From a virus (Duplodnaviria; Caudoviricetes), in IMG/VR virus record IMGVR_UViG_3300014059_000970, positions 1 through 64,000 of that record: a stretch of 64,000 nt of DNA; one strand, written 5' to 3'. The translations under genes and the position numbers were made by a program. Position 1 is the first letter of the stretch, and the number at the start of each line of letters is the position of its first letter. Under the pieces are notes generated by a model. The model did no database searches and had not been told where the DNA came from. It saw only the letters and a list, made by a program, of their open reading frames with translations. Shown here in pieces: positions 6,997 through 45,666 of the stretch.

Positions 6997-7004
6997 TGTA
7001 TAAT
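6996..7004 (+). promoter_or_regulatory. Conserved phage promoter-like motif GTGTATAAT
   Basis: Intergenic, 36 nt before ATG 7040; the same motif recurs at other gene starts. Confidence 0.55.
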
Positions 7005-7039
7005 TTAGTATATTTAACCTTTCAAATCGGAACTATATC

Positions 7040-7699: not shown

Positions 7700-7722
7700 A
7701 ATCCTTTAAGGAGAATAACTAA

Positions 7723-8517: not shown

Positions 8518-8519
8518 TA

Positions 8520-31362: not shown

Positions 31363-32186
31363 CCGAACTGATAGCCTTTAACCTCTTCTGGCACCGAACC
31401 AGAAGCCCTTATAGAATTTAGCTTCTCACACAACTCAGATGCTTTTGACTTGGTGATTTTCTTATAATTCTCTATCTTAATATCATTAGAAGCTAGCCAT
31501 TTCACACCATTAATATTCAAATCAGAGAAAGTTTTATCTATCATTTTCTCTTGTGTAGAATTAATAGTTTCGTATTGGTCTATGATTTCTTCTGGACTTA
31601 CTGCCTCTTCTGCGCTAATAACATTCTTTAGACGAAGTAACTTACGATAGGCTCTACTCTCTGCACGACTTTCTGCCATAGCTACTGGGTGAAGACTATA
31701 TGCGCCCTTACAATTATTACTTCCGGCGTCAGCACACCCATCTACGCTATATCCATTCTCTAATAGAATTCTTACTCTAACAGTAGCGTGATTATGATTG
31801 TCTGGAGTTGGCACTTGTGCAATTTCAGAAGACGACTCCGCTACATCATATCCTAAAACCTTTGGAGTTATCCTTCTTAATCCATCTAGAGTAGGATGCC
31901 CGTCTTGAAGTTCATCAGGGGCCATTTGACCTAATACCCACTTTGTCCAATTTGGGTCATCAAAGGTCATTAATTCTTCACCCTCTACTTCTACTCCGCT
32001 AACTTTTACAGAAGTCTCTGGTAGGGCGTTTTCTAAAATCGCATCATCTTCAGACTCCAATTCTCGTAGTTTAGCTACTACAGAACTTTTGGGAGTTAGA
32101 GAATCCGCTTCCTCTCTTGTTACTCCGTATTCATTTACTAACAAATCTCTTAACTCTGAAACCGACTTTGACGTTGTGTCAATCAT
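31350..32186 (-). CDS. Putative single-strand annealing protein (Rad52/Sak-like)
   Basis: PTLDGLRR...ATVRVRI...DGCADA...AMAESRAESRAYRKLL and C-terminal ITKSKASELCEKL, resembling phage SSAPs. Confidence 0.4.
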   Translation of the reverse strand: MIDTTSKSVSELRDLLVNEYGVTREEADSLTPKSSVVAKLRELESEDDAILENALPETSVKVSGVEVEGEELMTFDDPNWTKWVLGQMAPDELQDGHPTLDGLRRITPKVLGYDVAESSSEIAQVPTPDNHNHATVRVRILLENGYSVDGCADAGSNNCKGAYSLHPVAMAESRAESRAYRKLLRLKNVISAEEAVSPEEIIDQYETINSTQEKMIDKTFSDLNINGVKWLASNDIKIENYKKITKSKASELCEKLNSIRASGSVPEEVKGYQFGWRL

Positions 32187-33006
32187 ATTTATCTCCTAGT
32201 ACAATTCTTCGTTCACCCAGTTCTGGGAATTTAGTTCCTATTTTATTTAATATTTCGACTAAATCAGATACGAGTCTCAGTCCATAGGTTTTGGATAGAT
32301 TCTTTTTCTGCCTTAATCTAATGATGCAACAGCCAGCATTGAGCAAAAGACCGTCCTTAATATTATCCGTTTTTTGGGTCTTCTTTAAGTGTTCTTCTCC
32401 CCAAATTGGCTCAAAATGCGTTGGACCGTCAATTTCAACGGCGGTATTTAGTTTTGGCAGCCAAATGTCCAAGTGAACCTTTTCGTTAAGTAGACTTTGT
32501 TCTTTGTGAAACTCTACTTGAAAACCACGATTAAGAAGTTCTGCGACAACAAAGTGTTCTAATTTAGACCCATCTTTTGCTACCTGTAATCTCTTTTTTG
32601 TAGCCTTTTGTTGCATTTCTTCAATTTGAAGGGCCGACCTATTATTCCAGTTTTCCCTAGCAATTTCAGAACGCCTCTCCCTTTCTTCGTCAGAAATGTC
32701 TTCCCACTTATTTGCTACTGACTGCCCTATCTTTATTTTTTCTTCTTCGGTCCTTTGTCTTCCAGCAGTAGGATGTTCTACTCTTCCATTTGCTAATGCT
32801 AGAGCTTGGGCTTCTGACCTATTCCTAAATTGAAATCCAATCTTGGAAGCATGACGGCGAACCTTATTTGCATAGGTTCCGTATCTATCTCCAATTTGCG
32901 CCGTTGTTAACCCGGCCACATTATGACATTCATTCAATATAGCCTTTTGTAGCTCAACATCAAGTGCTAAAAAGTCGTTCCAGTTGTTTACCATTAAAGT
33001 CCTCAA
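32179..33006 (-). CDS. NUMOD3-like repeat + DUF559/Vsr-like endonuclease (probable homing endonuclease)
   Basis: GRQRTEEEKIKIG; SKLE...HLDIWLPKLNTAVEIDGPTHF...D.IKDGLL..AGCCIIR. Confidence 0.7.
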   Translation of the reverse strand: MRTLMVNNWNDFLALDVELQKAILNECHNVAGLTTAQIGDRYGTYANKVRRHASKIGFQFRNRSEAQALALANGRVEHPTAGRQRTEEEKIKIGQSVANKWEDISDEERERRSEIARENWNNRSALQIEEMQQKATKKRLQVAKDGSKLEHFVVAELLNRGFQVEFHKEQSLLNEKVHLDIWLPKLNTAVEIDGPTHFEPIWGEEHLKKTQKTDNIKDGLLLNAGCCIIRLRQKKNLSKTYGLRLVSDLVEILNKIGTKFPELGERRIVLGDKYD

Positions 33007-33403
33007 TTATTAATTCTGGTTCATGCCATGTGCTTGCTAGTATATCAAACCTATCTTGATTTCTAGCTATTAACTTATTACTAAATACTTTTCGTAACAT
33101 ATCAATAGGGTATGGCTGATAAATATACTCTAAATCCCATGGGTAATAGTATTTAACATTATCACCCATCATATTATTCATTACATTTGCTGTAAATATA
33201 TCTGTTGCAATAATTTTGCCGTCATACAAATAACCATAAAGTAGTTCTACGACAGGAAAATTAATTTTGTTTGGTATTGGGCCGGGCTCACAATAAAAAA
33301 CCGTAATGTTAATCTGGCTTGATAACTTATTTAGTTCAGCCGTCATACTTAAGAATTTTTGTGAATGGTCGGGCTTATCTATTAGAATTGCTAAGTTTTT
33401 CAA
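32960..33403 (-). CDS. Hypothetical protein of glycosyltransferase cluster (GT-B N-lobe-like)
   Basis: IIATDIFTA...KYYYPWDLE pattern; operon context. Confidence 0.4.
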   Translation of the reverse strand: MKNLAILIDKPDHSQKFLSMTAELNKLSSQINITVFYCEPGPIPNKINFPVVELLYGYLYDGKIIATDIFTANVMNNMMGDNVKYYYPWDLEYIYQPYPIDMLRKVFSNKLIARNQDRFDILASTWHEPELIIEDFNGKQLERLFST

Positions 33404-34076
33404 TTATTATTTGTCCTAGTTTATTTTCTGTGATTAAATTCTTCTTTTGAGATAGTACCATCGCGTCCCTATCTTTTTTTGAAAGTTCAAGTAGCTCAAT
33501 TGGATTTGGATGGTTATAGACGGATAAAATATTGTTATAAACTAATGAGTCTGACATTATTCTATTTGTACAGATTGTAAGTTTAGAAGACTTGCTCAAT
33601 TTAACTAAATCTTGCTGTGTGCCTAAACCCACATATCCTGGACAATTAATAAACGCGCCTATTATTTTTACTCTATACTTTTTATGTAGTTTATTATATA
33701 TGTCGTGTACAAACTCTTGGTTGTTGCCGTCAAATCCAATTACTATGTCCGATTCAAGTTCTTTGCTTGGAAGTTCGGGCTTGTACTTCATTGTATTCGC
33801 AAAACCAGGCAGATTCATCTCAAAGTTGTCTGGAAAGCGAATTTTTTCTCTTCCAAGGATAATTGTTTTCGGATTGGTTTTCTTCCTGAAATTATCAATC
33901 TCTGGTATTAGGGCAGAAGGCTCTGGTAAAACTAGAAAGTCGGGATTTTGTTCCTGAAATGCCCTATGAATATTTCTGTCAAATCCGGCGACCTGTTGGC
34001 CGTTAGTTCCAAATCCATTAGCTACGCCGTCTAGTTCTTCTCTATAAAAACTGTCTATACAAATCAAAAATTTCAT
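33375..34076 (-). CDS. Divergent glycosyltransferase-like protein
   Basis: NPDFLV...ANTMKYKP...ESDIV...YVGLG..QDLVKLSKSSKLTI pattern; context. Confidence 0.35.
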   Translation of the reverse strand: MKFLICIDSFYREELDGVANGFGTNGQQVAGFDRNIHRAFQEQNPDFLVLPEPSALIPEIDNFRKKTNPKTIILGREKIRFPDNFEMNLPGFANTMKYKPELPSKELESDIVIGFDGNNQEFVHDIYNKLHKKYRVKIIGAFINCPGYVGLGTQQDLVKLSKSSKLTICTNRIMSDSLVYNNILSVYNHPNPIELLELSKKDRDAMVLSQKKNLITENKLGQIIIEKLSNSNR

Positions 34077-34756
34077 ATTTGTTCCATTAATTTTAAATCA
34101 TATGAAGAGTCTATATCAATAGCCCTTCCGTTAATCGGCTCGAATACTTTAAATATTCCGCCACGAGTTATTATATCGTTGATTGCTTCAAAGCCAAACC
34201 AATAAGATGTTTTTTCTTGTTTAAGTATTTGCTTTAAGATGTCCAGCTCTGGTCCGGTGAAAAAGGCAATTTGCGCCCATTTTGTTGGAATTTTATAGAA
34301 GACGTTTTCTAAAACTCCGTTATTGTAAATACATCCAACTTCTTCATCTTTCATTATAGAAGACACGACAACGGCAGACTCTTTATTAAATGGCAGGTCT
34401 ATACACTGTTTGTTAAATACAAGGTCGCCATATACTACTAATACTTTATTTGTCTTTGCCTTTTTTAGACCCAGTCCAATACTATATAACACATTGGTTG
34501 ACTCGTAATCTTTATTATAGATAAAGCGCACATTCTTTACATCTGACGATAACTTATCAAATTGATATCCACCAACTACAATAATCTCACAGTGCCTAAA
34601 GCACGAGTTAATAATCTCTATCTGTTTTGATAGGATTGTGTGTTCATCATTAATTTTAACTAAAGACTTTGGACCATAAATTTTCATTCTTTTGCCAAGA
34701 CCGGCTGCTGGAATTATTATTGTGTATTTGTCTCTATAAGAAGGCCTGGATTCCAT
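34073..34756 (-). CDS. Nucleotidyltransferase (NTP_transf; sugar-phosphate/phosphocholine cytidylyltransferase-like)
   Basis: IIIPAAGLGKRM...GPKSL, IIVVGGY, YNKDYESTN..YSI, YGDLVF, DIDSSYDL. Confidence 0.85.
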   Translation of the reverse strand: MESRPSYRDKYTIIIPAAGLGKRMKIYGPKSLVKINDEHTILSKQIEIINSCFRHCEIIVVGGYQFDKLSSDVKNVRFIYNKDYESTNVLYSIGLGLKKAKTNKVLVVYGDLVFNKQCIDLPFNKESAVVVSSIMKDEEVGCIYNNGVLENVFYKIPTKWAQIAFFTGPELDILKQILKQEKTSYWFGFEAINDIITRGGIFKVFEPINGRAIDIDSSYDLKLMEQI

Positions 34757-35121
34757 GAAAAAATAACTTTTGGTATATGTATTCCTATTTCTTGACTTAA
34801 TAACTGTAATAGTAATTCACTGATATTTTCCTTGTCTCCAGCTAGAGGAATCTGCGTTCTAACAAATATAGGAGAGTTTAAGTTAAATCCCTTATGAATA
34901 ATATCTGGACAGAATGAGGGGTTATATCTAATAACTTCATATCCATTATGTATTTCCTTTATGTCTCCATATAGAACTTTATTAATTGTGGTTTGAAAGG
35001 TGTCCTCTATTATTTTTCTATTAAGAACGCTAAAGCCATCGGGAACCAATCCGTAAATAACATTAGGATTTGGATTTTTCAGTAAATCGAGAAACTCTTT
35101 AATTGTTTTTACAATATGCAT
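34717..35121 (-). CDS. Hypothetical protein, possibly degenerate GT-A fragment
   Basis: VLYGD...PSF...PIFVR...HIPKVIF resembles the GT2 C-terminal half. Confidence 0.3.
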   Translation of the reverse strand: MHIVKTIKEFLDLLKNPNPNVIYGLVPDGFSVLNRKIIEDTFQTTINKVLYGDIKEIHNGYEVIRYNPSFCPDIIHKGFNLNSPIFVRTQIPLAGDKENISELLLQLLSQEIGIHIPKVIFSWNPGLLIETNTQ

Positions 35122-35813
35122 TTTTGTTTATTTCTTTCTAGTCTTAACATTAGTAAAAACTTTTTAGTATATTCAAAGTAATAGCTATTATATATATATG
35201 GAGATATCAACATCATTGCTTGTTTCTTATTTTCTGCATATGAAAATTTCAACAGCTCTTCTTGTATCTTTTTAGTAATTACTTTTGGCCACTTGTTGTT
35301 AACTTCTGGAAATCCGTTTATGATAAGAAGAAATTCTCGCCTGTTATAGTTCTTAAATATAATGTGCCAGCTATCGTCTTCTAATTCAAAATGAATGTTC
35401 CACTTTATACCAGAACCCTCTAAAGTCTCTTTAACTAACTCCATTAGCTTTTCGTTTTTATCTGGATTGTCTTTGACGATTACATATAGTTCTTTTGGAG
35501 GATTATCAAAACGCCTAATTTTATTTAGGGAGTCCTTTAGGATTTCTCCTTCTAGGAATAAAACTATAGGAATATATTGTATTAGGTTTTCTTTTTGTAT
35601 TTTTTGAACTAGGTCGGTTGTATCCTTTTGCTCTTCTAACCAAGACTCTGGTCTATAATATGGACAAACAAAGTCTTTTATAACCGTGCCGTTTTCTGTT
35701 CGTATGACTTTTAGACCTTTTTCTCTATAGAATTGAGCCCTACCAATACGACAATCAATTTTATCATTGTAAAAGATACATCCCTTACAGTTCGTGTCTG
35801 GTGGTGCAAACAT
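35109..35813 (-). CDS. Hypothetical protein with N-terminal Cys motif
   Basis: CKGCIF...C...CPYYR; operon context. Confidence 0.5.
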   Translation of the reverse strand: MFAPPDTNCKGCIFYNDKIDCRIGRAQFYREKGLKVIRTENGTVIKDFVCPYYRPESWLEEQKDTTDLVQKIQKENLIQYIPIVLFLEGEILKDSLNKIRRFDNPPKELYVIVKDNPDKNEKLMELVKETLEGSGIKWNIHFELEDDSWHIIFKNYNRREFLLIINGFPEVNNKWPKVITKKIQEELLKFSYAENKKQAMMLISPYIYNSYYFEYTKKFLLMLRLERNKQKCIL

Positions 35814-36132
35814 AATGACAATTGTCTCTCTTTGTTGATATTGTCTTGAAGTTAAATTGGGCCAAAAAGCGCTTAATATTATCTAGGGTGTCCATTGACT
35901 TCACCGCACCAATCATTGAGTTAATCTCATCTATAGATTTTGAAGAATCTGAAACAGCCCTAGCAAAATCAAATACCTCTATACCAATTATCGTCAATGT
36001 TCCACCAATTGCAAATTTCGGTAATATTTGCTGTATTACATTGTATTTCTCTTTAAGCTCAAGTGGGTCTAAATTAACTGTCGCGTTATTCACAGACCCG
36101 TCCGGTTGGGACAAAATTTCCTGAATGTTCAT
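35785..36132 (-). CDS. Hypothetical protein, possibly degenerate SAM-methyltransferase fold
   Basis: ILPKFAIGGTLTIIGIE resembles the LKPGG motif; no SAM-binding glycine loop is visible. Confidence 0.3.
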   Translation of the reverse strand: MNIQEILSQPDGSVNNATVNLDPLELKEKYNVIQQILPKFAIGGTLTIIGIEVFDFARAVSDSSKSIDEINSMIGAVKSMDTLDNIKRFLAQFNFKTISTKRDNCHYVCTTRHEL

Positions 36133-37079
36133 TCTATGTATACCCTAGAAGCATGCTTGCTAAGTTCCTCCCTCCATCTATTAATAAACATAGGCTGGCT
36201 AAACTTAGAATGCAAATTAGTTTTAAAATTACTAATCTTATTATATAGGGCTTTATCGAAAGATAGCTCTTTTATTTTGGAAATTATTTCTTCTTGGGTT
36301 GTAACTTGTATACAGTTGAGGTTTTGTTCTAATAGTCCTTGGTATATTGGCCACCCATATGTTACGATTGGCACGCTATTATTAAGAGCATATAATATAT
36401 CATAATTAATATCAGCCTGTGGAGCGGTATTGACGAATAACCTAGCCCTTCTAAAAAGACCTTTGTAATCTTCAAATGTTTCTACTTGACCGGCGTATGG
36501 TAGATTTGGATGATGTCCTATAAAAACGGCCGATGGGAAATTTTGTTTAATTAGATTTATAAGTCCCATATCATGCTGTAAAGATACGGTACAAAGTATA
36601 TCTATGTCTTTTTCGCTTTCCCAGTTTTTTGGAACTATGCCATAATTAATACAAGTGTCCGATTCATACTGTTGTTGAACATATTCTGACGTTGATATAT
36701 GTGGGAACGGAGTTAGTTGCTTATTCTTTTCTCTAAAAAACGCATTTTGATTGTTCTGGTCATGGTCAATAATAAGACCAGGCGCGTGCAACTGTCTGCA
36801 TATTTGGAAAAACTGATTATGGGCATGTCTGCTATTAAAGATAACAAGGTCTATATCAACATGGTGTACTTCGTTTAAATCCCTAAAAATATGTAGGTTT
36901 TTATATTCGGCCTTCATAAATCCAGGCCACTGATATGCCGACATGTCTAGACAACCATAAAAGTCGTGGCCGGTTTGTAATAATTCAACATCAAACTTGC
37001 CGTCATAGAAGAAGGTAAGAATGTTTAACTTGCCGTCTTTTTTTGTGGCTTTTCTTACTAAATTACTTATTATAGACAT
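36129..37079 (-). CDS. Glycosyltransferase (GT-B/GT4-like)
   Basis: INYGI, FRRARLFVNT, LYALNNSVPIVT, KFSQPMFINRW. Confidence 0.65.
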   Translation of the reverse strand: MSIISNLVRKATKKDGKLNILTFFYDGKFDVELLQTGHDFYGCLDMSAYQWPGFMKAEYKNLHIFRDLNEVHHVDIDLVIFNSRHAHNQFFQICRQLHAPGLIIDHDQNNQNAFFREKNKQLTPFPHISTSEYVQQQYESDTCINYGIVPKNWESEKDIDILCTVSLQHDMGLINLIKQNFPSAVFIGHHPNLPYAGQVETFEDYKGLFRRARLFVNTAPQADINYDILYALNNSVPIVTYGWPIYQGLLEQNLNCIQVTTQEEIISKIKELSFDKALYNKISNFKTNLHSKFSQPMFINRWREELSKHASRVYIE

Positions 37080-38130
37080 CTAAACACTCCTTCATTTTAT
37101 TTGCAACTGTTTGATATGAAAATTTATCTAGAATAAATTGTCTAGTGTCGGACTTTTCACGACTTTTATATTCGTGTCGCATTGCGTCTTGTAGGTCAAG
37201 TATATCAATTTCCTGCCATGTTTCATTTCCAGTATATATGTGCGGTAATGGAGGATGCTTACAATCTATTGGAGTTTCAACACTATTTACTCCTATAAGA
37301 TTTGGATAAAAAATTGACATAGGAAATGTATTATTTGTGCAAATCACAGGATTATTAAAATAAAGGGCGTCCATAATAGGCATACAAAATGCCTCTCCAC
37401 GAGAAGGACAAACAAAACAATCACACATCTTATGTATTGAGTATATGTCTTGTTCAGATATGGCGCTTTTAATAATAATTTCTGGAATATATTCCTTTCT
37501 TAATCTGGCTCGCGTTCTCCATTCGTTTATTTCTCCAGCCAAGTCGGTTTCATTGGTCTTAATCAAAAGAGTTACGTCTTCTTGTGGACTAAATTCTCTA
37601 TGAAAAGCCTTAACTAGAGCTAGGATATTCTTACGCTCATTGTTCTCACCAATAAAGTAGAATATGTACTTGCCATCGGCCTCTTGTAAATTAAATGGCT
37701 CTGGTTCAGCAATAGGGGCTTTATATGGAATTGGAACAATGTTTATTTTTACCTTTACTCCACTAGATACAAGACTTTGCTTTTCCATTTCAGAGTTAAC
37801 CCATACTTCATCAAGTAGGTTTATCTTTTGGACCCAGCCGGTCTTTTGAAGATTTCTTGTTTCTGTAAAGAACACGCCTATATTATAGCAGTCGTGACTT
37901 TCTAATAGGTCTGGTAGAACATTTTGAATTAGAACATCTATCTTGTCTAATTTTGTATTTTCGGCAGCTTCTGCTCTTTTTGAAATCTTACCACCGTTGC
38001 CACCCATATATACGGGCCTTGCAGCAACTTTATGGCCGGTCATTAATAGGGCGTCTAGATACCTTCGAGCGGCGATACTCCAACCATCTGTGTCGGGGCC
38101 ACGATATTGTGCTAAAAATAATATATTCAT
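37063..38130 (-). CDS. Glycosyltransferase family 4 (GT-B)
   Basis: ERKNILALVKAF, DCFVCPSRGEAFCMPIMDAL...PVICT. Confidence 0.85.
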   Translation of the reverse strand: MNILFLAQYRGPDTDGWSIAARRYLDALLMTGHKVAARPVYMGGNGGKISKRAEAAENTKLDKIDVLIQNVLPDLLESHDCYNIGVFFTETRNLQKTGWVQKINLLDEVWVNSEMEKQSLVSSGVKVKINIVPIPYKAPIAEPEPFNLQEADGKYIFYFIGENNERKNILALVKAFHREFSPQEDVTLLIKTNETDLAGEINEWRTRARLRKEYIPEIIIKSAISEQDIYSIHKMCDCFVCPSRGEAFCMPIMDALYFNNPVICTNNTFPMSIFYPNLIGVNSVETPIDCKHPPLPHIYTGNETWQEIDILDLQDAMRHEYKSREKSDTRQFILDKFSYQTVANKMKECLDVYNK

Positions 38131-38849
38131 TGGTTATACTCTGTTATAATTTTACATATGCGTATTAGTTCGTCTTGACTATATACGCCCTTCATCATAT
38201 TAATCATTTTGTGGACCCACTGGACATTTCCAACTATATATCCTTTTTTATTATTAATTCTATCTAACGAAGCTGTTCTATCTGGTTGTTGGCCAAGTTC
38301 TAATTGAATACCAGATATGGCACATTTGCCGTTTTGTCTATCCCATAATTCTTGCAGATATTCAATGGTAATGTTAAATTCTTTATTTCTAGATACCGCT
38401 TCTCGTTTTAGAGTTGACCAAAACTTACCAGGAATATCTTTAAAACCAGCCCATCTTGGGTTTTTGTTTCCCTTAATATCTGGAATTTTTCTATATAGTG
38501 GTTTTTTACGATTTGTGTAGTCTACATTTCTTTCAATACATTTTGATTCACCACAACATTTAACATCTCCACATAATAATTCATGAGTAGTAACATTTCG
38601 TTTTTTTCCACATTCACATATACATTCGTTTTCATAGCTACCATTTTTCTTAGAATCGAGCCTTTTAACTACAAACAATTTATTTATAGTTTGCCCAGCT
38701 AGTTCTTTAATATTGTTTCGTTTTTCGCTAGAGATACGGCGATTAATGCTTTGTATAGAACAATTGTATATTTTTGAAATTTCTATTGTACTATAACCGT
38801 CTAAATACAATTGGTTAATTTCTTCAATAGGTAAATTTAATTTTTTCAT
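38127..38849 (-). mobile_element. HNH-type homing endonuclease-like protein (start probably ATG 38849)
   Basis: CICECG; QNGKCAISG...ASLDRINNKKGY..GNVQWVHKMINMMKG; N-terminal HTH. Confidence 0.75.
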
Positions 38850-38882
38850 TTTATAACCATATAGGATAGTTTTGTATAACAT

Positions 38883-38892
38883 ATTGTACACC
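38883..38892 (-). promoter_or_regulatory. Promoter-like motif GGTGTACAAT upstream of HNH gene and glycosyltransferase operon
   Basis: One-mismatch variant of GGTGTATAAT; lies between genes if the HNH gene starts at 38849. Confidence 0.45.
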
Positions 38893-38928
38893 GATTGTTG
38901 ATTCTCTATACAGTTATTTAAATAAATT

Positions 38929-39600
38929 TTAACTAGATTCTTCCTCTTTAAAGCAGTTGCGAAATTTGTCTTTTCTAAATCCAGCCTTGAAATACTTTAG
39001 ACACCTAGAAATAATCATCGCTTCGTCAAATACGTCAGCCAAGGCGGTGTGGGCCGCACTTTTAGGCATTCCAAAATATTCTCGTAAACTATCCATCGAA
39101 CGACTTTTTAATGTACTGTCCCATACTAGTAATAAGTGGGCAATATGTCTTAAGTCTATAATCTCGTGATTAAATAGGCGCTTAATCTTAAATTTCTCAT
39201 TAAGTCTATTAGCTATAATAAGGTCGAAGTTAATAATGTTAACTCCACTAGCTATAGGGGCGTCGTATTGAGTCTTGCCCTTATTATACTTTTCAACGTG
39301 CTGTACGAACTGTGGCCATACAACTTCTAATAGTGGTGATTCTGACCACTTCTTTAATAGTTCTTCTTGAGTGCATCCACGAAGTTTACAGTGCCATGCT
39401 ATTGTTTTGATTCTATCGTCAGTTAAGTATGTAGCTAAATCGTCTATTCCTTCTGGACGAATATTTGAATTAAACTCACTACCGGGAATAATATCCAAAG
39501 TAAATGGGTCAATAATAACACAAGCCAGTTCTACAGGATTACATGTTTCTGGAGTTGGCAAATCTATTTCATAGTCAAACACACAAATTGGTTTTAACAT
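38929..39600 (-). CDS. dnaQ: DEDDh 3'-5' exonuclease (DnaQ/epsilon-like)
   Basis: ExoI VFDYE, ExoII NIINFD, ExoIII AHTALAD. Confidence 0.8.
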   Translation of the reverse strand: MLKPICVFDYEIDLPTPETCNPVELACVIIDPFTLDIIPGSEFNSNIRPEGIDDLATYLTDDRIKTIAWHCKLRGCTQEELLKKWSESPLLEVVWPQFVQHVEKYNKGKTQYDAPIASGVNIINFDLIIANRLNEKFKIKRLFNHEIIDLRHIAHLLLVWDSTLKSRSMDSLREYFGMPKSAAHTALADVFDEAMIISRCLKYFKAGFRKDKFRNCFKEEESS

Positions 39601-41270
39601 TAATTTCCTTTTTCTATTAAATGCGCGAATTCGATAAAGTCTGGATAATTTAATTGGTCCATACCAACCCTAGCTCGCTCTCCTAAAATCTTATTAGTTC
39701 CTAACGCCTTACATATATTATATATTGTCTCTCTATTAATTCCGTTAAAACCCTGTCCAGGATTTGTAAATCCTCCATTATTTAACCAAGAGAGCCATTG
39801 TACTCCAGTATAGTTATGTGCTAGCTGCGGATTCTTTGCTACTTCTGACGTTGCCCACAATATGAATTCTTTGTTTGTTAATCCTTCAATCATGTTTGGT
39901 ATGTTCATATCGCCTATTTGTATTGGAGCGTCCCACTTACCTTGTAGACCAGTTAATTTAATTGATTCAAAATGTGCCGTTAATTTATTTGCACAAATGT
40001 CCCAATCAAAATTCTTCTCGGCTCCTTCTCTAGCTGACCTACTGCGCTTTTCTTTATACTTTTTATCTAAAGACAGAAACTTATAGAAGGCTTCCGCTGC
40101 AAACTCATTATCTGGAGCAACCCTATCTGCCTTCATTTGTAAATCACGAGGAATGCTCGCTGGCTTTAATGGAATTCCATGTGTTAATTTTACACAGTCT
40201 TCCATTGCAGAATAATCTACAGAGGCAATTACCACCCCACAGGCCGCTGCTTCTAATTGGCCCAATCCAAGACCTTCGCAGTTAGCATATTGGACATATA
40301 AATCCATTGTATTATATGCGTCTACTAATTGGTCTTCTGTATATCCGTTTCCAACACTAGGAATCGCCGCATCTGGACTATTACTAAAGTGTGACCATAC
40401 TGGCGCACTTAATGGTCTTCCTCCTCCACAAAACTTGGACACGAAATGTTTTCTTGTCCTATTGCAAACATAGCTAAAGTATACCCTATTCATTAGTCCG
40501 AATTCATTTAATAAATCGGGCAAGTCCCATCCGTTATCTGGATAGCTTGTGTGTAAATAAAGGTAGGTCTTTTTACCTATTTCTGTATTGCCGTACTTAT
40601 CTAGATAGATTCTAAATGCCTTGAATAATTCAGCAAATAACTTTCTTGGCTGATTACGCATTGTCGTGCCAATAATATAGGCGTCTTCTGGAAGGCCCAT
40701 TCTCTTTCTGGCTTCTATCTTGTCTTTTACTTTATAGATTTTTGTATCTACGCCGGGGTATAATGCCCCTAAAGGATTGAATCCATACTTTCGTAGATAT
40801 GGAATGCACCAGTCCGCATAAGTAAACATTGAGTCTGAATCTTTAAAATTATCAAACCAACTTACTTGTTGTGGAATACTATCGCATGTATATGATGTGC
40901 AAAAGTGAAAGAACTTCCTAAATGGAGAAGAATGAACGTGGTTAGCGTTCCACGGGTCTTGGAAGGTAAAAACAATATCTGGCTTGAAATCTAAAGCTAT
41001 ACGGTCAAATCTCCAAGCTCCATAGCAATTATTTTGTGCGTTAGAATTAAAAAAATCAAATTCTGGATGGCCGGGCCTTACTGCAACCGGGTAGCACTTC
41101 CATTTAACATGAGAATAATCGCTGTCTTCTATTGCTCCAAAACCAGATAGCTCTGCTACCTCAAACTTATCATTAGCAACTAGGCGAGGAATTAGTTCTC
41201 TACCTATCTTACCAAAACCACTTTTTGCAGAAGAAATTTCTGTGTGGAATAATATCTTTATCTTTTTCAT
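39600..41270 (-). CDS. Glycosyltransferase family 4 (GT-B)
   Basis: SGFGK, FKPDIVF, PGVD, RNQPRK, YNTMDLYV..ANCEGLGLGQLEAAACG. Confidence 0.85.
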   Translation of the reverse strand: MKKIKILFHTEISSAKSGFGKIGRELIPRLVANDKFEVAELSGFGAIEDSDYSHVKWKCYPVAVRPGHPEFDFFNSNAQNNCYGAWRFDRIALDFKPDIVFTFQDPWNANHVHSSPFRKFFHFCTSYTCDSIPQQVSWFDNFKDSDSMFTYADWCIPYLRKYGFNPLGALYPGVDTKIYKVKDKIEARKRMGLPEDAYIIGTTMRNQPRKLFAELFKAFRIYLDKYGNTEIGKKTYLYLHTSYPDNGWDLPDLLNEFGLMNRVYFSYVCNRTRKHFVSKFCGGGRPLSAPVWSHFSNSPDAAIPSVGNGYTEDQLVDAYNTMDLYVQYANCEGLGLGQLEAAACGVVIASVDYSAMEDCVKLTHGIPLKPASIPRDLQMKADRVAPDNEFAAEAFYKFLSLDKKYKEKRSRSAREGAEKNFDWDICANKLTAHFESIKLTGLQGKWDAPIQIGDMNIPNMIEGLTNKEFILWATSEVAKNPQLAHNYTGVQWLSWLNNGGFTNPGQGFNGINRETIYNICKALGTNKILGERARVGMDQLNYPDFIEFAHLIEKGN

Positions 41271-41326: not shown

Positions 41327-41713
41327 TTAAAATGGGATGTCTGCTCCGTCGCCCTTACTATTTCCAACACCAGCTAATTCTGGTTCTGGCTCTTGAACAC
41401 TTCCGGTGTCCTTCTTATAGCCACTAAAAACAGTAAGCCTATTGGCATTAACAACTATCTTACTTCTCTTACTGCCGTCAGACTCCCATCTTTCTTGACG
41501 TAGTTCTCCTTCTACTAGAACCGCGTCTCCCTTTGATGGAACCTTCTTACCCCATGACTTAACATCAAAATAATCGGTTTCATCTACCCATTGGTCGCCC
41601 TTCTTAACTCTACGATTAACCGCTACCCCAAACTCTACCACGCTGTTGCCACTTGCAAAAGTCTTAACTTCTGCGTCTCTTGTGACATTTCCTTGTAATT
41701 GAACACTGTTCAT
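41327..41713 (-). CDS. ssb: Single-stranded DNA-binding protein
   Basis: MNSVQLQGNVTRDAE...VLVEGELRQERWE, acidic DIPF tail; GGAGG RBS before ATG 41713. Confidence 0.95.
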   Translation of the reverse strand: MNSVQLQGNVTRDAEVKTFASGNSVVEFGVAVNRRVKKGDQWVDETDYFDVKSWGKKVPSKGDAVLVEGELRQERWESDGSKRSKIVVNANRLTVFSGYKKDTGSVQEPEPELAGVGNSKGDGADIPF

Positions 41714-41723
41714 CTTTGTCCTC

Positions 41724-44700
41724 CTAAATTTGGTTAACAGACTCAACAATGAGGCTGTTCTTATCACTTCTTTTCCCGGTAATTAAAACACAATTACCTT
41801 CTTGTAAAATACATTCAAACTGTTCCCATGCGTCAGAAAACACAACTATAGCTTCACAAATTCCGCTATCGTCCGACGCCGTAATAAACGCCATTTCTTT
41901 TCCTGCGTTTGCGCCATTTTTAATTGTATTGGTTTTTATCCTATCAATTTGACATGCTATACTAATATAGCTATTTTGATTATTGAAACCATTATTAAAT
42001 TCTTGGCATGTGCAATTTGCCCTATATTTATTCTGGCTTTCATCTAAAAATGTTGCCGTTAAACAAATACCTAATAGGGCGTTTTCTAATTGTGCTACTT
42101 GGTGTGGCTTATCAAGAAGTTCATATGGTGGATTATGAATAGACTCTATTAGACCATTAATAACTGCCACCCTATTCTTATTAGAACAAGCGCCGTTTTT
42201 TCCAGATGGAGAAAGTAGCATTGCTTCTAATATACCTAGAAGGGTAGTCTTTTTATTTAGAATTATGTTGTTTTTTATCCAAAGTCTTTCCCTGTCAGTC
42301 ATTTCTGACCAGAGTTTGAACTCAAATACCATTTTAATTCTAGGAATCTTGAAACAGTCGCACGCACCAGAATTAATAAGGGATTCCATTGCCCTAGAAT
42401 CAATCTTTGGCATCTTATCTGGAGGTACTGCTTTTAGCAAAAATTCAAACCACTGAATGTCTGGATGAATAAACTGCCTTAATTTTTCAACAACGCTTTC
42501 TCCAACATGCTTAATATCACTTAACCCAAAATATATCTGTTTATCAATAAGGTCGAAATGTGAGTTTAACCTTAATATACTTGGTGGTTGAACAAATATA
42601 TCAAATGATTTAGCGTCGTTAACTAACTCATAGATTTCCTGTTGTGGCTTTGGCTTTTGCTTTGAGTAATACAAATAAGCGGTATAAAATTCCAATGGAA
42701 AATAAGTCTTTGCATAAGCAGACATAAAAGAGAATAGAGCATAACTCAAGCTGTGGGATTTATTAAACGAATAACGCTGTGATTTTTCAATCCAGCCGAA
42801 AATCTCTTCTCCAATCTCTTTACTTACAACCCCTTGCTTTTCAATACCTTCAATAAACTCAACTTTAACTTTAGCCATAAGGTCGGCCTTCTTTTTACCA
42901 ATAGCCTTACGCAAAGCATCGGCCTGCTTTAAGTCGAAACCGGCCAATAATTGGGCCAACTTCATAGCAGATTCTTGGTAAATCAAAAGACCATATGTTG
43001 CCTTAAGAACACTAATAGTAGAGTCGTGAACATAGGAAACTTCCTCACCTAAATTTTTTCTAATAATATAGTGTTCAGTAACGCTTTTACCATCTTCTAG
43101 TTTAGCTTCCAAACAACCGGGACGAAGCACAGCCATAAGTCCGCTTAAATGCTCCATACATTCTGGTTTTAAATCTTTAGACTTTCCTTGTCCAAGTCTT
43201 GAATCTAACTGAAAACAGCCTTTAGTCTTTCCTGTTGCAAATAAATCCCAAACGGCTTGGTCTTCTAAATCTAAAGTATTAAAGTCAGTGTTAAACGCTG
43301 GATTAAGCCTAGCTATCATAGCCATCTTATCTAGGAAATTTAGACCTAGAATATCCATCTTACACAAACCGATAGCTTCCATATAGTTCATAGTAAGACC
43401 GCCGATTGGTTTCTTGGTCTTGGCATCTAGAACCATTGGACATATTTTATCTAGCTTGTCTTTACTCACCACGACACCGGCAGCGTGCCTTGAAACATTG
43501 GCTTTTACACCTTCTAGGCTCATAGCTTCTCTAAATCTATCAGCATAAGGACCGGCCAATTCTCCATTCTCATCAAGATAGCACCATTCCTTAAACCTAT
43601 CAGCCCTATTTTCTAGACACCACCTTAAGATTGAAGAACTGCCTTCTTCCATTTCTTCCATTTCTTGGAGTTCGTCTGTAATCTTATGTTCTTCAATAAT
43701 ATTTGCAGTAATACGCTTAACCTCTTCGTGGGTCATTTCATTGTATGCACTAAATACTTGGCTAATAGCTTTCTTACCCTTTAGATTGCCAAATGTGATA
43801 ATTTGAGTAACTCTATCAGCGCCATACTTTTGCTTAATGTATTCTACAATTTCATCACGATGCTCAACCTCAAAGTCGCTATCAATATCTGGAAGGCTAC
43901 CAGAACGACCTTCGTTATAAAAGCGCTCAAACATTAAGTCATACTTAACGCTATCAACTTTAGTAATGCCTACTAGATATGATACTAGACATCCGGCGGC
44001 AGAGCCACGACCAACGCCAGTTAGCCATCCCTTTTGACGGCAATAGTCAATAATATCCCAAACGATTAAGAAGTAGCCGAATAGATTGTTACGCTTCAAA
44101 ACGTCTAGCTCATACTTAACCCTATCGGCATACTCTTGTTTTCTTTCTTCTGGAATCTTACCAACTATAAGCCTTTTCCATCCTTCTCTACAAAGCTGAG
44201 TAAAATACTCCTCTTCAGTCAATCCATTTGGACAAGGAAAATCTGGTAATTGTGGTGAAGATAGAATATGATAATCTTCTATTTGGGCCAGAATCTTATT
44301 GGTGTTTTCTAGTTCTTCTTGAGTATGGCCATATTGGACCATTTCCTCATAAGTTGGAATATGATAATTGTCTGAAATAAAGAATGTGCGAAGTTGAAAG
44401 TCGGGCTTCATGGCCTCTTTCATACTTACGCTCATATTACTACACAATAGAATTCGCTGTAATTGTGCATCAGAATGCCTGCAATAATGCGCGTCTGGTG
44501 TGGCGATACATGGAATTCCTGTAGTTTTAGATATTTCTCTTACGGCATTTGTTACAGTTATTTGGTCTGTATTATACTCTCGGTCCATTAACTGACATTC
44601 TAGCCAGAAATTACCCTTTCCAAATATCTTTTCTAAATACAGGGCGGTTTTGGTAGCAGACTCTATGCCAAACTTTTGAAAGCTATCTGATACATTACTG

Positions 44701-45128
44701 CCAAGGTGGCCAGAAAACCCTATAATATTTCCGTCTAGGAATTCTGCTAGTTGTTCTAGAGATAGACGTGGCTTACTATAGTAGTGATTTTCATCTTTAT
44801 TGCTAGCTTCAACTATTTTTAGAATTTGAGACCAGCCCGCGTCGTTCTTTGCAAGGATAACTAGGTGACTGCACTTCCTATTTTCATTTGTTTTAATAGA
44901 GGCGTTGTCATCTGATATGTATAGTTCAATACCTAGAATAGCTTTTAATCCCATTTCTTTCATGGATTGTAAAAAGGCTATACTATTACTTACATTTCCA
45001 TGGTCACTGATAGCGCATCCAAGACTTTCTATTTCTATAATTCTTTTTGCAATATCTTTGGTTTTGGAAAGTCCGTCCAATAACGAACAGTCGCTATGTA
45101 CATGTAATGGAGTATATGTTTTATTCAT
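41724..45128 (-). CDS. dnaE: DNA polymerase III alpha subunit (family C)
   Basis: PHP HVHSDCSLLDG, GRGSAAG, PDIDSDF, KMDILGL, YSFNKSHS, C-terminal OB fold. Confidence 0.97.
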   Translation of the reverse strand: MNKTYTPLHVHSDCSLLDGLSKTKDIAKRIIEIESLGCAISDHGNVSNSIAFLQSMKEMGLKAILGIELYISDDNASIKTNENRKCSHLVILAKNDAGWSQILKIVEASNKDENHYYSKPRLSLEQLAEFLDGNIIGFSGHLGSNVSDSFQKFGIESATKTALYLEKIFGKGNFWLECQLMDREYNTDQITVTNAVREISKTTGIPCIATPDAHYCRHSDAQLQRILLCSNMSVSMKEAMKPDFQLRTFFISDNYHIPTYEEMVQYGHTQEELENTNKILAQIEDYHILSSPQLPDFPCPNGLTEEEYFTQLCREGWKRLIVGKIPEERKQEYADRVKYELDVLKRNNLFGYFLIVWDIIDYCRQKGWLTGVGRGSAAGCLVSYLVGITKVDSVKYDLMFERFYNEGRSGSLPDIDSDFEVEHRDEIVEYIKQKYGADRVTQIITFGNLKGKKAISQVFSAYNEMTHEEVKRITANIIEEHKITDELQEMEEMEEGSSSILRWCLENRADRFKEWCYLDENGELAGPYADRFREAMSLEGVKANVSRHAAGVVVSKDKLDKICPMVLDAKTKKPIGGLTMNYMEAIGLCKMDILGLNFLDKMAMIARLNPAFNTDFNTLDLEDQAVWDLFATGKTKGCFQLDSRLGQGKSKDLKPECMEHLSGLMAVLRPGCLEAKLEDGKSVTEHYIIRKNLGEEVSYVHDSTISVLKATYGLLIYQESAMKLAQLLAGFDLKQADALRKAIGKKKADLMAKVKVEFIEGIEKQGVVSKEIGEEIFGWIEKSQRYSFNKSHSLSYALFSFMSAYAKTYFPLEFYTAYLYYSKQKPKPQQEIYELVNDAKSFDIFVQPPSILRLNSHFDLIDKQIYFGLSDIKHVGESVVEKLRQFIHPDIQWFEFLLKAVPPDKMPKIDSRAMESLINSGACDCFKIPRIKMVFEFKLWSEMTDRERLWIKNNIILNKKTTLLGILEAMLLSPSGKNGACSNKNRVAVINGLIESIHNPPYELLDKPHQVAQLENALLGICLTATFLDESQNKYRANCTCQEFNNGFNNQNSYISIACQIDRIKTNTIKNGANAGKEMAFITASDDSGICEAIVVFSDAWEQFECILQEGNCVLITGKRSDKNSLIVESVNQI

Positions 45129-45666
45129 TTAAATACTTAATTGCTTTTTCTAAATTGTGGATATTGTCTAAGAACATACCTAGGCCAGCATTACATTTAG
45201 AGCAAAGTAAGCCTCTCACTTTAAGTGTTGTATGACAATGGTCTAATACTAACTTATCTAACTCTCCACATATCGCACATTGATATTGTTGTTTTTCTAA
45301 TAAGGCTAAATATTCTTCTTTTGTTATATTATATTTTTGTCTTATTACATTTATATATCTTTGGTCTGGATTTTTATCTCTATATTGTTTTTCAGCTTTT
45401 TTATCGCATTGTTTACATCTGTTTCTAAGTCCATCTTTACTTCTAAGTCTTTTAGAATATTCTTTAATTTCTTTTTCTAACTTACAAAATGAACATATCT
45501 TCGTTCCAGTCGTAATTATTCCTGGATGTTTAGCTATTCTCTCTCTATCATATTTTAGCTCACAACTTTTGCATCTAGTATCTAGACCATCGGCATAAAC
45601 TTTTCTAGAATTAAATTCTGATAGAGGTTTTCTATCTCTACAAACTCTACAACTTTTAGTGTCCAT
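45121..45666 (-). mobile_element. Endonuclease VII-family (HNH) homing endonuclease-like protein
   Basis: QQYQCAIC..LVLDHCHTTLKVRGLLCSKCNAGLG; two N-terminal Zn-finger repeats. Confidence 0.85.

What the first reader, a model, noticed from the sequence alone, without database searches (positions are those of the whole stretch)
32960..41270. Nine-gene glycosyltransferase/nucleotidyltransferase cluster inside the replication arm
Seen: two clear GT4 enzymes (39600, 37063), a third GT-B (36129), an NTP-transferase (34073) and five mostly overlapping ORFs. Several of those five look like degenerate GT or methyltransferase folds. The block is interrupted only by dnaQ and an HNH gene. Inference: a multi-step glycan pathway, possibly with pseudo-enzyme subunits. 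There are two possible substrates. Virion proteins are supported by the [S/T]G bias and by the GGTGTACAAT motif upstream of the 38849-to-32960 run. DNA hypermodification is supported by proximity to dnaE/dnaQ, but no hydroxymethylase or TET/JBP-type gene is visible in this window.
Basis: partly seen in the sequence, partly recalled or inferred. Interest (0 to 1): 0.75.

Follow-up and report, generated by a model that had tools for sequence, protein, structure and literature searches.

The report
Conserved phage glycosylation gene module
Nine soluble sugar-transfer-type genes sit in fixed order inside the DNA-replication operon of a large uncultured phage clade; they probably build a glycan on a phage-made product, but what they glycosylate is still unknown.

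Summary
Nine co-oriented, mostly overlapping genes at 32960-41270 (minus strand) are interrupted only by a dnaQ-like exonuclease and an HNH endonuclease.

Gene content:
- A 556-aa GT4 and a 355-aa GT4.
- Two divergent GT-B-like proteins (316 and 233 aa).
- A stand-alone GT-B N-domain (147 aa).
- Two GT-A-like proteins: 234 aa with a Cys4 head, and a truncated 134 aa.
- A LicC-like NTP-transferase (227 aa).
- A methyltransferase-fold remnant (115 aa).

The module is conserved. In 62 of 62 related viral loci with enough flank, six genes occur in the same order between dnaE/SSB and a nuclease/annealase-like pair. The 147-, 234- and 134-aa genes occur in 56, 39 and 18 loci.

The 556-aa GT4 is phage-restricted and as conserved as the replisome genes. 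46 of 257 homologs carry intein-size insertions at four or five sites; intein domains were confirmed in those checked.

Known routes to glycosylated DNA are unsupported. This genome has a canonical ThyA and no TET. Five complete relatives lack TS-family, TET and C5-methylase genes. None of the nine proteins has a membrane segment.

Best reading (about 45%): cytoplasmic glycosylation of phage proteins. Notes from this scan described the same module and its inteins on other genomes.

The parts
39600..41270 (-). GT556: the core GT4 glycosyltransferase of the module (GT-B type, with a C-terminal extension of about 110 aa). It is phage-restricted and intein-prone.
   Evidence: PF00534 at 25.7 bits and phrog_2170 at 2e-21. 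The family alignment has invariant R205, K210, E332 and E340. 118 of 556 positions are at least 90% conserved in 77 sequences. 526 representative clusters match at E<=1e-30.
38929..39600 (-). dnaQ-like 3'-5' exonuclease. It interrupts the module here; in relatives it lies between the two dnaE halves.
   Evidence: PF00929.
38127..38891 (-). HNH homing-type endonuclease, a mobile insertion. The real start is probably an ATG at 38881 or 38849.
   Evidence: PHROG endonuclease/HNH families at 5e-26. Homologs occur in only 3-4 of 80 loci. Sequence read.
37063..38130 (-). GT355: second GT4 glycosyltransferase.
   Evidence: PF00534 at 4e-15 and 56 bits. Present in 62 of 62 loci. The window has E-x7-D at the EX7E position. 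Family conservation is low: 7 positions at 90% or more.
36129..37079 (-). 316-aa divergent GT-B-like protein with no conserved E-x7-E.
   Evidence: The family profile hits GT4 C-domains in the PDB at 5e-5. hhalign to the GT556 family gives 76%. Present in 62 of 62 loci. There are no invariant columns.
35785..36132 (-). 115-aa remnant of a class-I methyltransferase fold. It lacks the SAM-binding Gly-rich motif, and the window copy also lacks the first strand.
   Evidence: Profile from relatives: 2.5e-17. The Atlas model of ortholog L019:13672-14085 has TM 0.73-0.79 to Methyltransf_11/23/25 clusters. Alignment. Present in 62 of 62 loci.
35109..35813 (-). 234-aa protein: an N-terminal Cys4 module followed by a GT-A / nucleotide-diphospho-sugar-transferase-like domain without a DxD motif.
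   Evidence: Four invariant Cys. AF2 pLDDT 82.9. Foldseek and VIA Z 11-13 to hyaluronan synthases, mannosylglycerate synthase, GMPPB and IspD. No acidic residue at the DxD position. Present in 39 of 62 loci.
34717..35121 (-). 134-aa GT-A-like fragment. It is N-terminally truncated compared with the 190-200-aa orthologs.
   Evidence: The family profile hits the chondroitin polymerase K4CP GT-A domain at 0.0015. Alignment. Profile from relatives: 6.8e-9. Present in 18 of 62 loci.
34073..34756 (-). LicC-like (MobA/NTP_transf_3) nucleotidyltransferase, presumed to activate the donor.
   Evidence: PF12804 at 2.4e-12. All NCBIfam hits fall far below their cut-offs. The family profile matches S. pneumoniae LicC (1jyk) over its full length at 5e-11, against 2e-5 for GlmU. 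Present in 62 of 62 loci.
33375..34076 (-). 233-aa compact GT-B-like protein, related to the 316-aa family.
   Evidence: hhalign of this family against the 316 family gives 95%. Profile from relatives: 1.4e-14. Weak PDB hits to CapJ and CheY-like domains. Present in 62 of 62 loci.
32960..33403 (-). 147-aa stand-alone GT-B N-terminal (acceptor-side) Rossmann domain plus crossover helix. It has no donor domain.
   Evidence: AF2 pLDDT 95.4. VIA Z 15.2, rmsd 2.5 A over 146 residues to GT4 entry 6eji. Z 12-13 to BshA, MshA, GlgM and HepE. Present in 56 of 62 loci.
41327..45128 (-). Upstream flank: SSB (41327-41767) and an unsplit DnaE (41724-45128).
   Evidence: Pfam SSB, and PHP / DNA_pol3_alpha / finger / HHH domains.
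30976..33006 (-). Downstream conserved flank: HTH+PD-(D/E)xK-like protein (32179-33006), annealase-like protein (31350-32186) and a small Cys4 protein (30976-31362).
   Evidence: Present in 60, 61 and 57 of 62 loci. Conserved residues. The functional names are my inference from motifs; no Pfam or PHROG match passed.
30240..30270 (-). Strong terminator-like hairpin where the minus-strand arm meets the plus-strand structural arm.
   Evidence: 14-bp stem with 8 GC pairs, followed by a T-run.

Best explanation
The block is a self-contained, cytoplasmic glycosylation module that belongs to the core genome of a large uncultured phage clade.

Proposed steps:
1. The LicC-like nucleotidyltransferase activates a phospho-sugar, or another phospho-alcohol, as an NDP/CMP donor.
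2. GT556, the only strongly conserved and clearly catalytic glycosyltransferase, puts the first residue on an acceptor that is the same across the clade. Its acceptor-side N-domain is as conserved as its donor side.
3. GT355 and the fast-evolving GT-B-like and GT-A-like proteins extend or vary the glycan.
4. The proteins that lack catalytic motifs act as non-catalytic partners or substrate-holding subunits. These are the 147-aa half GT-B, the 115-aa methyltransferase remnant, the DxD-less 234-aa protein and the truncated 134-aa protein. The model for this is GtfB or Alg14.

The most likely acceptor is a phage-made protein, such as virion or fibre proteins, glycosylated in the cytoplasm before assembly.

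Shown: gene content, folds, motif loss, synteny, absence of membrane parts, and absence of known hydroxymethyl-base enzymes. Inferred: the order of steps, the complex formation and the acceptor.

I put about 0.75 on 'conserved soluble glycosylation module acting on a conserved, non-lipid acceptor', and about 0.45 on the protein target in particular.
For: - Folds and families.
- Conservation and collinearity: 62 of 62 loci keep GT556-GT355-316-115-NTP-233 in order, and at least 561 viral contigs encode GT556 relatives.
- GT556 conservation: 118 positions at 90% or more, including R205, K210, E332 and E340 and a Trp/Tyr-rich N-domain.
- Intein-size insertions in 46 of 257 homologs. They sit at about residues 102, 108, 123, 206 and 331, the last inside the E-x7-E motif. 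This argues for an indispensable enzyme.
- The family is essentially phage-only: 12 hits in 185,579 species genomes, all MAG contigs from mixed phyla.
- No hydrophobic segment reaches a membrane-span level in any of the nine proteins, and there is no Wzx/Wzy/PGT-type gene.
- The accessory families lack catalytic motifs.
- [S/T]G dipeptides are in excess in structural-arm proteins: O/E 1.57, up to 2.5, against 1.19 elsewhere, while G[S/T] is not.
- Soluble multi-GT protein glycosylation has viral and bacterial precedents. PDB neighbours include chlorovirus B736L and GtfC/GlyE of serine-rich-repeat adhesin glycosylation.
Against: - No glycan, acceptor or expression data exist.
- The module sits in the replication/recombination operon on the strand opposite to the virion genes. 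In mycobacteriophages the glycosyltransferases lie among the structural genes.
- The [S/T]G excess can come from fibre or beta-helix repeats.
- The GGTGTACAAT motif is not significant.
- Structural neighbours of GT4 and GT-A folds are generic. DNA-modifying phage GTs give the same neighbours: BshA, MshA and TarP (Pyle et al., bioRxiv 10.1101/2023.12.21.572611, read).
- 'No invariant residue' in families at 15-25% identity may partly be alignment error.
Confidence: 0.45

Rival explanations
1. The module glycosylates phage DNA, as in T-even phages and the MT/5mYOX/GT clusters. The glycan would be built on a modified base as protection against host nucleases.
For: - Fixed position between dnaE/SSB and the recombination genes.
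- This genome has a C5 DNA methylase and a T4-type dNMP kinase a few kb upstream.
- Heptose, hexose and HexNAc mono- to trisaccharides on 5hmC are documented, and those GT-B and GT-A enzymes resemble BshA/MshA and TarP (paper read).
- An Atlas feature lead to T4-Gluco-transf scored 0.89.
Against: - ThyA is canonical: PPCH and PFNIASY motifs and a full C-terminus, with E 4e-62 to solved thymidylate synthases.
- No Tet_JBP or ThyX in this genome.
- Five complete relatives of 197-230 kb that carry the core module have no TS-family, no Tet_JBP and no C5-methylase gene.
- PF09198 is absent.
- The GT-like families are acidic to neutral, with median pI 4.9-6.4.
- Seven to nine GT-type genes exceed any known DNA glycan pathway.
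Confidence: 0.13
2. The module modifies a host envelope glycopolymer or glycolipid from the cytoplasmic face (teichoic acid, LPS core or a glycolipid). The purpose would be to block superinfection or re-adsorption, as with TarP/TarM or the cyanophage sugar clusters.
For: - Nearest characterised relatives are envelope enzymes: WaaG, PimB, TarS/TarP, GlcNAc-PG synthase, and LicC, which feeds phosphocholine to teichoic acid.
- Iyer et al. 2021 (PMC7824862) read phage GT clusters this way.
Against: - There is no membrane protein, flippase or lipid-carrier enzyme.
- Those cyanophage clusters are sporadic and polymorphic, whereas this module is fixed and collinear in 62 of 62 loci.
- GT556's acceptor domain is highly conserved across a clade whose contigs are binned with many different phyla. 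That fits a phage-encoded acceptor better than a host-specific one.
Confidence: 0.2
3. The module makes a soluble small-molecule glycoside or oligosaccharide, or glycosylates RNA. Possible roles are an anti-defence metabolite, a compatible solute or a tRNA modification.
For: - GT4 includes small-molecule enzymes (BshA, MshA, sucrose-phosphate synthase, GlgM), and these are the top structural neighbours.
- All nine proteins are soluble.
- Earlier notes report that the genome is rich in unusual tRNA-like RNAs.
Against: No gene for making an aglycone lies in the module, and there is no precedent for such a pathway as a core phage trait. This is speculation without a specific test passed.
Confidence: 0.15
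4. Most of the small ORFs are decaying gene fragments without function, and only GT556, GT355 and the NTP-transferase matter.
For: - The window copies are shorter than their orthologs: 115 against 138 aa, 134 against about 190 aa, and 233 against about 285 aa.
- Catalytic motifs are missing.
Against: - The 115-, 316- and 233-aa families are present and intact in 62 of 62 loci, and the 147-aa family in 56.
- These families persist at only 15-25% identity, which means long-term purifying selection on open frames.
- The AF2 model of the 147-aa protein is very confident, at pLDDT 95.
Confidence: 0.05

Closest known systems
Phage DNA sugar hypermodification (T4 alpha/beta-glucosyltransferases; MT + 5mYOX/TET + GT clusters of Pyle et al., bioRxiv 10.1101/2023.12.21.572611 / Cell Rep 2024)
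   Same: Phage-encoded soluble GT-B and GT-A enzymes, sometimes several in a row, located near replication genes. They have the same generic structural neighbours (BshA, MshA, TarP).
   Different: Those pathways need a hydroxymethyl-pyrimidine maker: a TS-like hydroxymethylase, or a C5-methylase plus TET. None is present in this genome or in five complete relatives. They also have one to three GTs, not seven to nine GT-type genes.
Mycobacteriophage virion O-glycosylation (Freeman et al. 2023, Cell Host Microbe; known to me and cited in PMC12619734, not read here)
   Same: Phage-encoded cytoplasmic glycosyltransferases that decorate the phage's own capsid and tail proteins, with no export machinery.
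   Different: There the genes lie among the structural genes and number about two. Here the module lies in the replication operon, has nine genes including pseudo-enzyme-like ones, and is a core trait of the clade. No glycan has been shown here.
Autonomous glycosylation of giant viruses (chlorovirus capsid glycans; Mimivirus fibril gene clusters; chlorovirus GT4 B736L, PDB 3oy2)
   Same: Virus-encoded multi-enzyme soluble pathways, combining nucleotide-sugar synthesis with several GTs, that act on virion proteins. B736L is among the PDB sequence hits of the GT556 family profile (4e-6).
   Different: Those are eukaryotic viruses, with no gene-order or close sequence relationship to this module. 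The similarity is at GT4 family level only.
Serine-rich-repeat adhesin glycosylation of streptococci (GtfA/GtfB, GtfC, GlyE and others)
   Same: Cytoplasmic O-glycosylation by a catalytic GT4 helped by a non-catalytic GT-B-fold partner, then extended by GT-B and GT-A enzymes. GtfC and GlyE appear among the structural neighbours.
   Different: The matches are weak: Z 8.6-9.7, below the generic GT4 hits. No SecA2/Asp export genes are present. Whether any protein here partners GT556 is untested.
Split GT-B enzymes (Alg13/Alg14 and bacterial two-chain homologs; from my own knowledge)
   Same: A GT-B half encoded as a separate polypeptide, as with the 147-aa N-domain protein.
   Different: No matching donor-half-only partner was identified, since the adjacent 233-aa protein seems to have two domains of its own. 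No fused form was searched for.
LicC, CTP:phosphocholine cytidylyltransferase of Streptococcus pneumoniae (PDB 1jyk)
   Same: Best full-length sequence match of the NTP-transferase family profile (5e-11). The window copy keeps the G-x-G-x-R...P-K signature.
   Different: Identity is low and the substrate cannot be inferred. No LicA, LicB or LicD partners are present. Many relatives replace the Gly-rich signature (consensus E-I-T-K-G-M-K-S).

Membership tests
GT4 / Pfam Glycos_transf_1 (GT556, 39600-41270) | Sequence membership in the GT-B donor-domain family | tested here: met
   PF00534 scores 25.7 bits, just under the 26.4 cut-off. However, phrog_2170 matches at 2e-21 over residues 7-437, most homologs are precomputed as PF00534, and the family profile hits PimB', BshA, MshA and B736L.
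GT4 / Pfam Glycos_transf_1 (GT556) | E-x7-E motif and the Arg/Lys pair that binds the donor phosphate | tested here: met
   E332 and E340 are invariant, and R205 and K210 are invariant, in 40 and 77 sequences. The roles of these residues are inferred by analogy.
GT4 / Pfam Glycos_transf_1 (GT355, 37063-38130) | Pfam score above the cut-off; E-x7-E motif | tested here: inconclusive
   PF00534 at 56.1 bits passes. The window has E-x7-D, and the motif is not conserved across 74 orthologs. Alignment error is possible.
GT-B glycosyltransferase (316 aa and 233 aa) | Two-Rossmann GT-B fold with conserved donor-binding acidic residues | tested here: inconclusive
   The 316-family profile hits GT4 C-domains at 5e-5, and the 233 and 316 families are related at 95% by hhalign. 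There are no invariant acidic residues. No structure model was made for either protein.
GT-B glycosyltransferase (147 aa) | Both Rossmann domains present | tested here: not met
   The model covers only the N-domain plus the crossover helix: Z 15.2 over 146 residues spanning chain residues 2-356 of 6eji. It has the fold of half an enzyme and is not an enzyme by itself.
GT-A (GT2-like) glycosyltransferase (234 aa) | GT-A fold | tested here: met
   Residues 75-234 give VIA Z 11-13.3 to hyaluronan synthases and mannosylglycerate synthase. Sugar-1-P nucleotidylyltransferases score equally, so the two classes cannot be told apart.
GT-A (GT2-like) glycosyltransferase (234 aa) | DxD metal/donor-binding motif after strand 4 | tested here: not met
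   The position reads N-G-F in the window and S/A-G-F in most orthologs. Only the four Cys are invariant.
Class I SAM methyltransferase (115 aa) | Rossmann-like methyltransferase fold | tested here: met
   This was tested on the 138-aa ortholog, not the window copy: TM 0.73-0.79 to Methyltransf_11/23/25 clusters. The window copy matches that family's profile at 2.5e-17.
Class I SAM methyltransferase (115 aa) | Gly-rich motif I (SAM binding) | tested here: not met
   The motif is absent from 27 of 28 aligned members; only L079 keeps G-G-S-G. The window copy lacks the whole first strand.
NTP_transf_3 / LicC-like nucleotidyltransferase (227 aa) | Pfam score above the cut-off and the G-x-G-x-R ... 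K signature | tested here: met
   PF12804 at 47.8 bits against a cut-off of 27. The window has A-A-G-L-G-K-R-M-K...P-K. LicC matches over its full length at 5e-11. Substrate specificity cannot be tested with these tools.
Phage DNA glycosylation pathway | A co-encoded enzyme that makes the hydroxymethyl-pyrimidine acceptor (TS-like hydroxymethylase, or C5-methylase plus TET/5mYOX) | tested here: not met
   This genome has a canonical ThyA, no Tet_JBP and a C5-methylase. Five complete relatives have none of PF00303, PF12851 or PF00145. The window's genome is only 81% complete.
Envelope polysaccharide pathways (Wzx/Wzy or ABC type) | Membrane-embedded initiating transferase, flippase or polymerase | tested here: not met
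   The maximum 19-residue hydropathy is 1.58 or lower in the window copies of all nine proteins; family medians are 0.93-1.20.
Mycobacteriophage-type virion glycosylation | GT genes embedded among capsid and tail genes; O-glycans on capsid and tail-tube C-termini | not testable with these tools
   The gene position differs: replication operon, opposite strand. Glycans need mass spectrometry.

The most novel reading that the evidence does not exclude
The GT556-centred module is an indispensable, clade-defining system that glycosylates phage DNA or a replication or packaging intermediate. It would use an acceptor chemistry that needs no hmC or hmU, which would be a new class of nucleic-acid glycosylation. 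This would explain its fixed place between the replisome and recombination genes, its replisome-like conservation, and an intein load otherwise typical of DNA-metabolism proteins.
Probability: 0.1. Interest if true: 0.9.

Novelty: new variant of a known kind. Interest (0 to 1): 0.62.

Why it matters
Phage glycosyltransferases are usually sporadic accessory genes. Here a seven-to-nine-gene soluble glycosylation module is a fixed core trait of a clade with no cultured member. That clade is seen in hundreds of viral contigs, including complete 200-230 kb genomes.

The lead enzyme is conserved like a replisome subunit and is colonised by inteins at several sites, which marks it as indispensable. 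The module also contains long-preserved half-enzymes and motif-less enzyme folds, which suggests a multi-subunit glycosylation machine.

Finding the acceptor would show what these abundant aquatic phages must glycosylate in order to reproduce. It could also reveal either a widespread form of virion glycosylation or a new nucleic-acid modification. The module is small enough for heterologous reconstitution.

Tried and rejected
- Near-identity DNA search of the block against 50,697 phage records found nothing.
- The search for related loci with single proteins (GT355, DnaE) found nothing. Only the GT556 family alignment worked.
The contexts of the closest homologs (P0002, 84% identity, and others) could therefore not be read.
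- Cultured phages carry only distant single GT556-like genes at 20-25% identity: S-EIVl, S-CBS4, TJE1 and Mae-JY09. The conserved 275-aa flank protein also has no cultured relatives.
- A Pfam scan of the 18 members of the 134-aa family gave only noise.
- PDB profile searches gave nothing significant for the 115-aa family and only weak CheY and CapJ hits for the 233-aa family.
- The Atlas lead from the 233-aa protein to T4 beta-glucosyltransferase was not borne out. PF09198 is absent from this genome and four relatives.
- 'Moraphages' (PMC12619734) have four core GT orthogroups, but they also have T4-like virion genes and other polymerases. The window's structural ORFs hit no informative PHROG. 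I could not show that the two clades are the same.
- GGTGTACAAT as a shared promoter was rejected as unsupported. The promoter scan did not rise above background.
- pI and hydropathy are only soft arguments.

Full report
**What is there**

The window is the first 64 kb of a 122.8-kb IMG/VR virus record that is estimated to be 81% complete. It has a plus-strand structural arm (303-30326). A minus-strand arm converges on it at a strong hairpin terminator at 30240-30270.

On the minus strand the gene order is as follows:
- DnaB, C5 DNA methylase, primase, dNMP kinase, PD-(D/E)xK nuclease, EndoVII
- DnaE (1134 aa, unsplit), SSB
- GT556, dnaQ-like exonuclease, HNH endonuclease, GT355
- ORFs of 316, 115, 234, 134, 227 (NTP-transferase), 233 and 147 aa
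- a 275-aa HTH+PD-(D/E)xK-like protein, a 278-aa annealase-like protein, a 128-aa Cys4 protein and a free LAGLIDADG endonuclease

Neighbouring genes of the block overlap by 1-47 nt, and no convincing internal terminator exists.

**Are the small ORFs genes, and is the block conserved?**

Near-identity searches found nothing. GT556, however, has more than 2000 homologs, mostly about 550 aa long and 37-84% identical. An alignment of these (A1) retrieved at least 561 viral contigs, of which 80 loci were fetched.

I clustered the ORFs of those loci and built profiles without the window's proteins. Every one of the nine window ORFs was recovered:
- 115 aa: 2.5e-17
- 134 aa: 6.8e-9
- 233 aa: 1.4e-14
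- 316 aa: 4.7e-36
- 234 aa: 9e-28
- 147 aa: 1.6e-26
- NTP-transferase: 9e-69
- GT355: 4e-91
- GT556: 6e-172

62 loci have at least 7.5 kb downstream of GT556. All 62 carry GT556-GT355-316-115-NTP-233 in that order. 56 add the 147-aa gene, 39 the 234-aa gene and 18 the 134-aa gene. 60 or 61 continue with the nuclease-like and annealase-like genes.

The window therefore has the fullest, nine-gene form of a seven-gene core.

Two features are particular to this genome. In relatives, dnaE is split into two genes and dnaQ lies between the halves. Here dnaE is whole, and dnaQ together with a rare HNH gene lies inside the module.

**What the proteins are**

- **GT556 and GT355** are GT4 enzymes and are distantly related to each other (hhalign 94%).
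- **The 316-aa family** matches GT4 donor domains (5e-5).
- **The 233-aa family** is related to the 316-aa family (95%).
- **The 147-aa protein** folds with pLDDT 95.4. It superposes on the N-terminal domain plus crossover helix of GT4 enzymes: Z 15.2, rmsd 2.5 A over 146 residues, with BshA, MshA, GlgM and HepE at Z 12-13. It is half a GT-B.
- **The 234-aa protein** has four invariant cysteines ahead of a GT-A / NDP-sugar-transferase-like domain (Z 11-13.3). That domain has no acidic residue at the DxD position in any ortholog.
- **The 134-aa family** matches the GT-A domain of chondroitin polymerase (0.0015). The window copy lacks the first beta-alpha-beta unit.
- **The 115-aa family** has a class-I methyltransferase fold: TM 0.73-0.79 for a 138-aa ortholog. 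It has lost the Gly-rich SAM loop in 27 of 28 aligned members.
- **The NTP-transferase** passes PF12804. As a family it matches pneumococcal LicC over its full length (5e-11), much better than it matches GlmU.

None of the nine proteins has a membrane-span-like segment.

**Unequal conservation**

GT556 has 118 positions conserved at 90% or more in 77 sequences. These include the Arg/Lys pair, both glutamates of E-x7-E, and a Trp/Tyr-rich acceptor-side domain. GT355 has 7 such positions.

The 316-, 234-, 233-, 147-, 134- and 115-aa families are only about 12-34% identical to the window copy, mostly 15-25%, and have few or no invariant residues. Most GT556 relatives have a CxxC...CxxC pair that this lineage has lost.

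GT556 is practically confined to viruses. In one genome per 185,579 prokaryote species there are 12 hits, all on MAG contigs from unrelated phyla.

Pfam confirms Intein_splicing, Hint and LAGLIDADG domains in the proteins checked, except for the insertion at site 206.

At 50% clustering the family has 526 representatives at E<=1e-30.

**Target**

Known DNA glycosylation needs hmC or hmU, made by a TS-like hydroxymethylase or by a C5-methylase plus TET. This genome's TS homolog is a canonical thymidylate synthase, and there is no TET or ThyX. Five complete relatives of 197-230 kb that carry the core module have no TS-family, TET or C5-methylase gene. PF09198 is absent. The DNA reading therefore survives only if the chemistry is new.

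Envelope pathways normally include membrane proteins, and none is present. A fixed module with a highly conserved acceptor domain also fits a phage-encoded acceptor better than a host-specific one.

The [S/T]G excess in structural proteins is real (O/E 1.57 against 1.19; 2.2-2.5 in two large proteins) but is not specific. The GGTGTACAAT motif is not enriched.

I therefore favour cytoplasmic glycosylation of phage proteins, at about 45%. GT556 would initiate, the variable GT-like proteins would extend or act as scaffolds, and the LicC-like enzyme would make a donor. The rivals are host envelope or glycolipid (0.2), a small molecule or RNA (0.15), DNA (0.13) and gene decay (0.05).

**Comparison and novelty**

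No cultured phage has this module. The structural genes of the window hit no informative PHROG.

Published analogues cover parts of the picture but not this conserved architecture. They are T4 and MT/5mYOX/GT clusters, mycobacteriophage virion glycosylation, giant-virus glycosylation clusters, GtfA/GtfB systems and split GT-B enzymes.

Earlier notes of this scan independently describe the same replication-linked GT cluster, with a degenerate methyltransferase and a half GT-B, on other genomes. They also describe inteins in this GT family. This is therefore a recurrent feature of the clade, not a peculiarity of this window.

I class it as a new variant of a known kind.

Noticed in passing
window 41724-45128 compared with loci L005, L008, L019, L022 and others (about 3800-9000 in the loci): DnaE is one 1134-aa gene here. 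In the relatives it is split into an N-part of about 635 aa and a C-part of about 545 aa, with dnaQ and one to three small ORFs between them. Some relatives show three pieces.
   Followed up: partly
homologs of window 39600-41270 (P0025-P0259): The GT556 family is an intein hotspot. 46 of 257 members carry 140-410-aa insertions at about residues 102, 108, 123, 206 and 331, the last inside the E-x7-E motif. Six members carry two insertions. The insertion at 206 has no Pfam match.
   Followed up: yes
window 39600-41270, residues 269-296: Most family members have four conserved cysteines (CxxC...CxxC, a likely zinc site) in an insertion of the donor domain. The window copy keeps only the first; the others are Thr, Ser and Ser.
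   Followed up: partly
window 50537-51448: A C5 cytosine DNA methylase (243 bits) lies between DnaB and primase. Five complete relatives have no such gene, so it is a lineage-specific acquisition.
   Followed up: partly
window 30323-30976, 38127-38891, 45121-45666: Three free-standing homing-type endonuclease genes (LAGLIDADG, HNH, EndoVII-like) lie in 15 kb of the replication arm. The HNH gene sits beside the relocated dnaQ.
   Followed up: no
loci of the L022 type, NTP-transferase orthologs (for example L022:14098-14793): In many relatives the Gly-rich G-x-G-x-R signature of the nucleotidyltransferase is replaced by a consensus E-I-T-K-G-M-K-S, while other residues (W160, E190, N193, D220) stay invariant. 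The catalytic consequences are unknown.
   Followed up: no
G000 71214-75418 (beyond the window): A canonical ThyA, a sigma-70 region-4 protein, a third GT4 (73422-74468) and an IMPDH/GMP-reductase-like gene lie together. Complete relatives also have a third GT4 of about 350 aa outside the module.
   Followed up: partly
window 23709-23805 (minus strand): ARAGORN calls a 97-nt tRNA-Ile(GAU) antisense inside the 1400-aa ORF 22614-26816. This is probably a false call.
   Followed up: no
window 303-29959: The large structural-arm proteins have no PHROG match apart from one weak hit, so the virion module is very remote from described phages. [S/T]G dipeptides are in excess while G[S/T] is not.
   Followed up: partly
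window 31350-32186 and 32179-33006: These are two strongly conserved flank genes: a 275-aa basic protein with an HTH and a PD-(D/E)xK-like core, and an acidic 278-aa protein with an A-E-S-R-A-x-R-K-L motif. They look like a nuclease/annealase recombination pair but match no Pfam or PHROG family.
   Followed up: no
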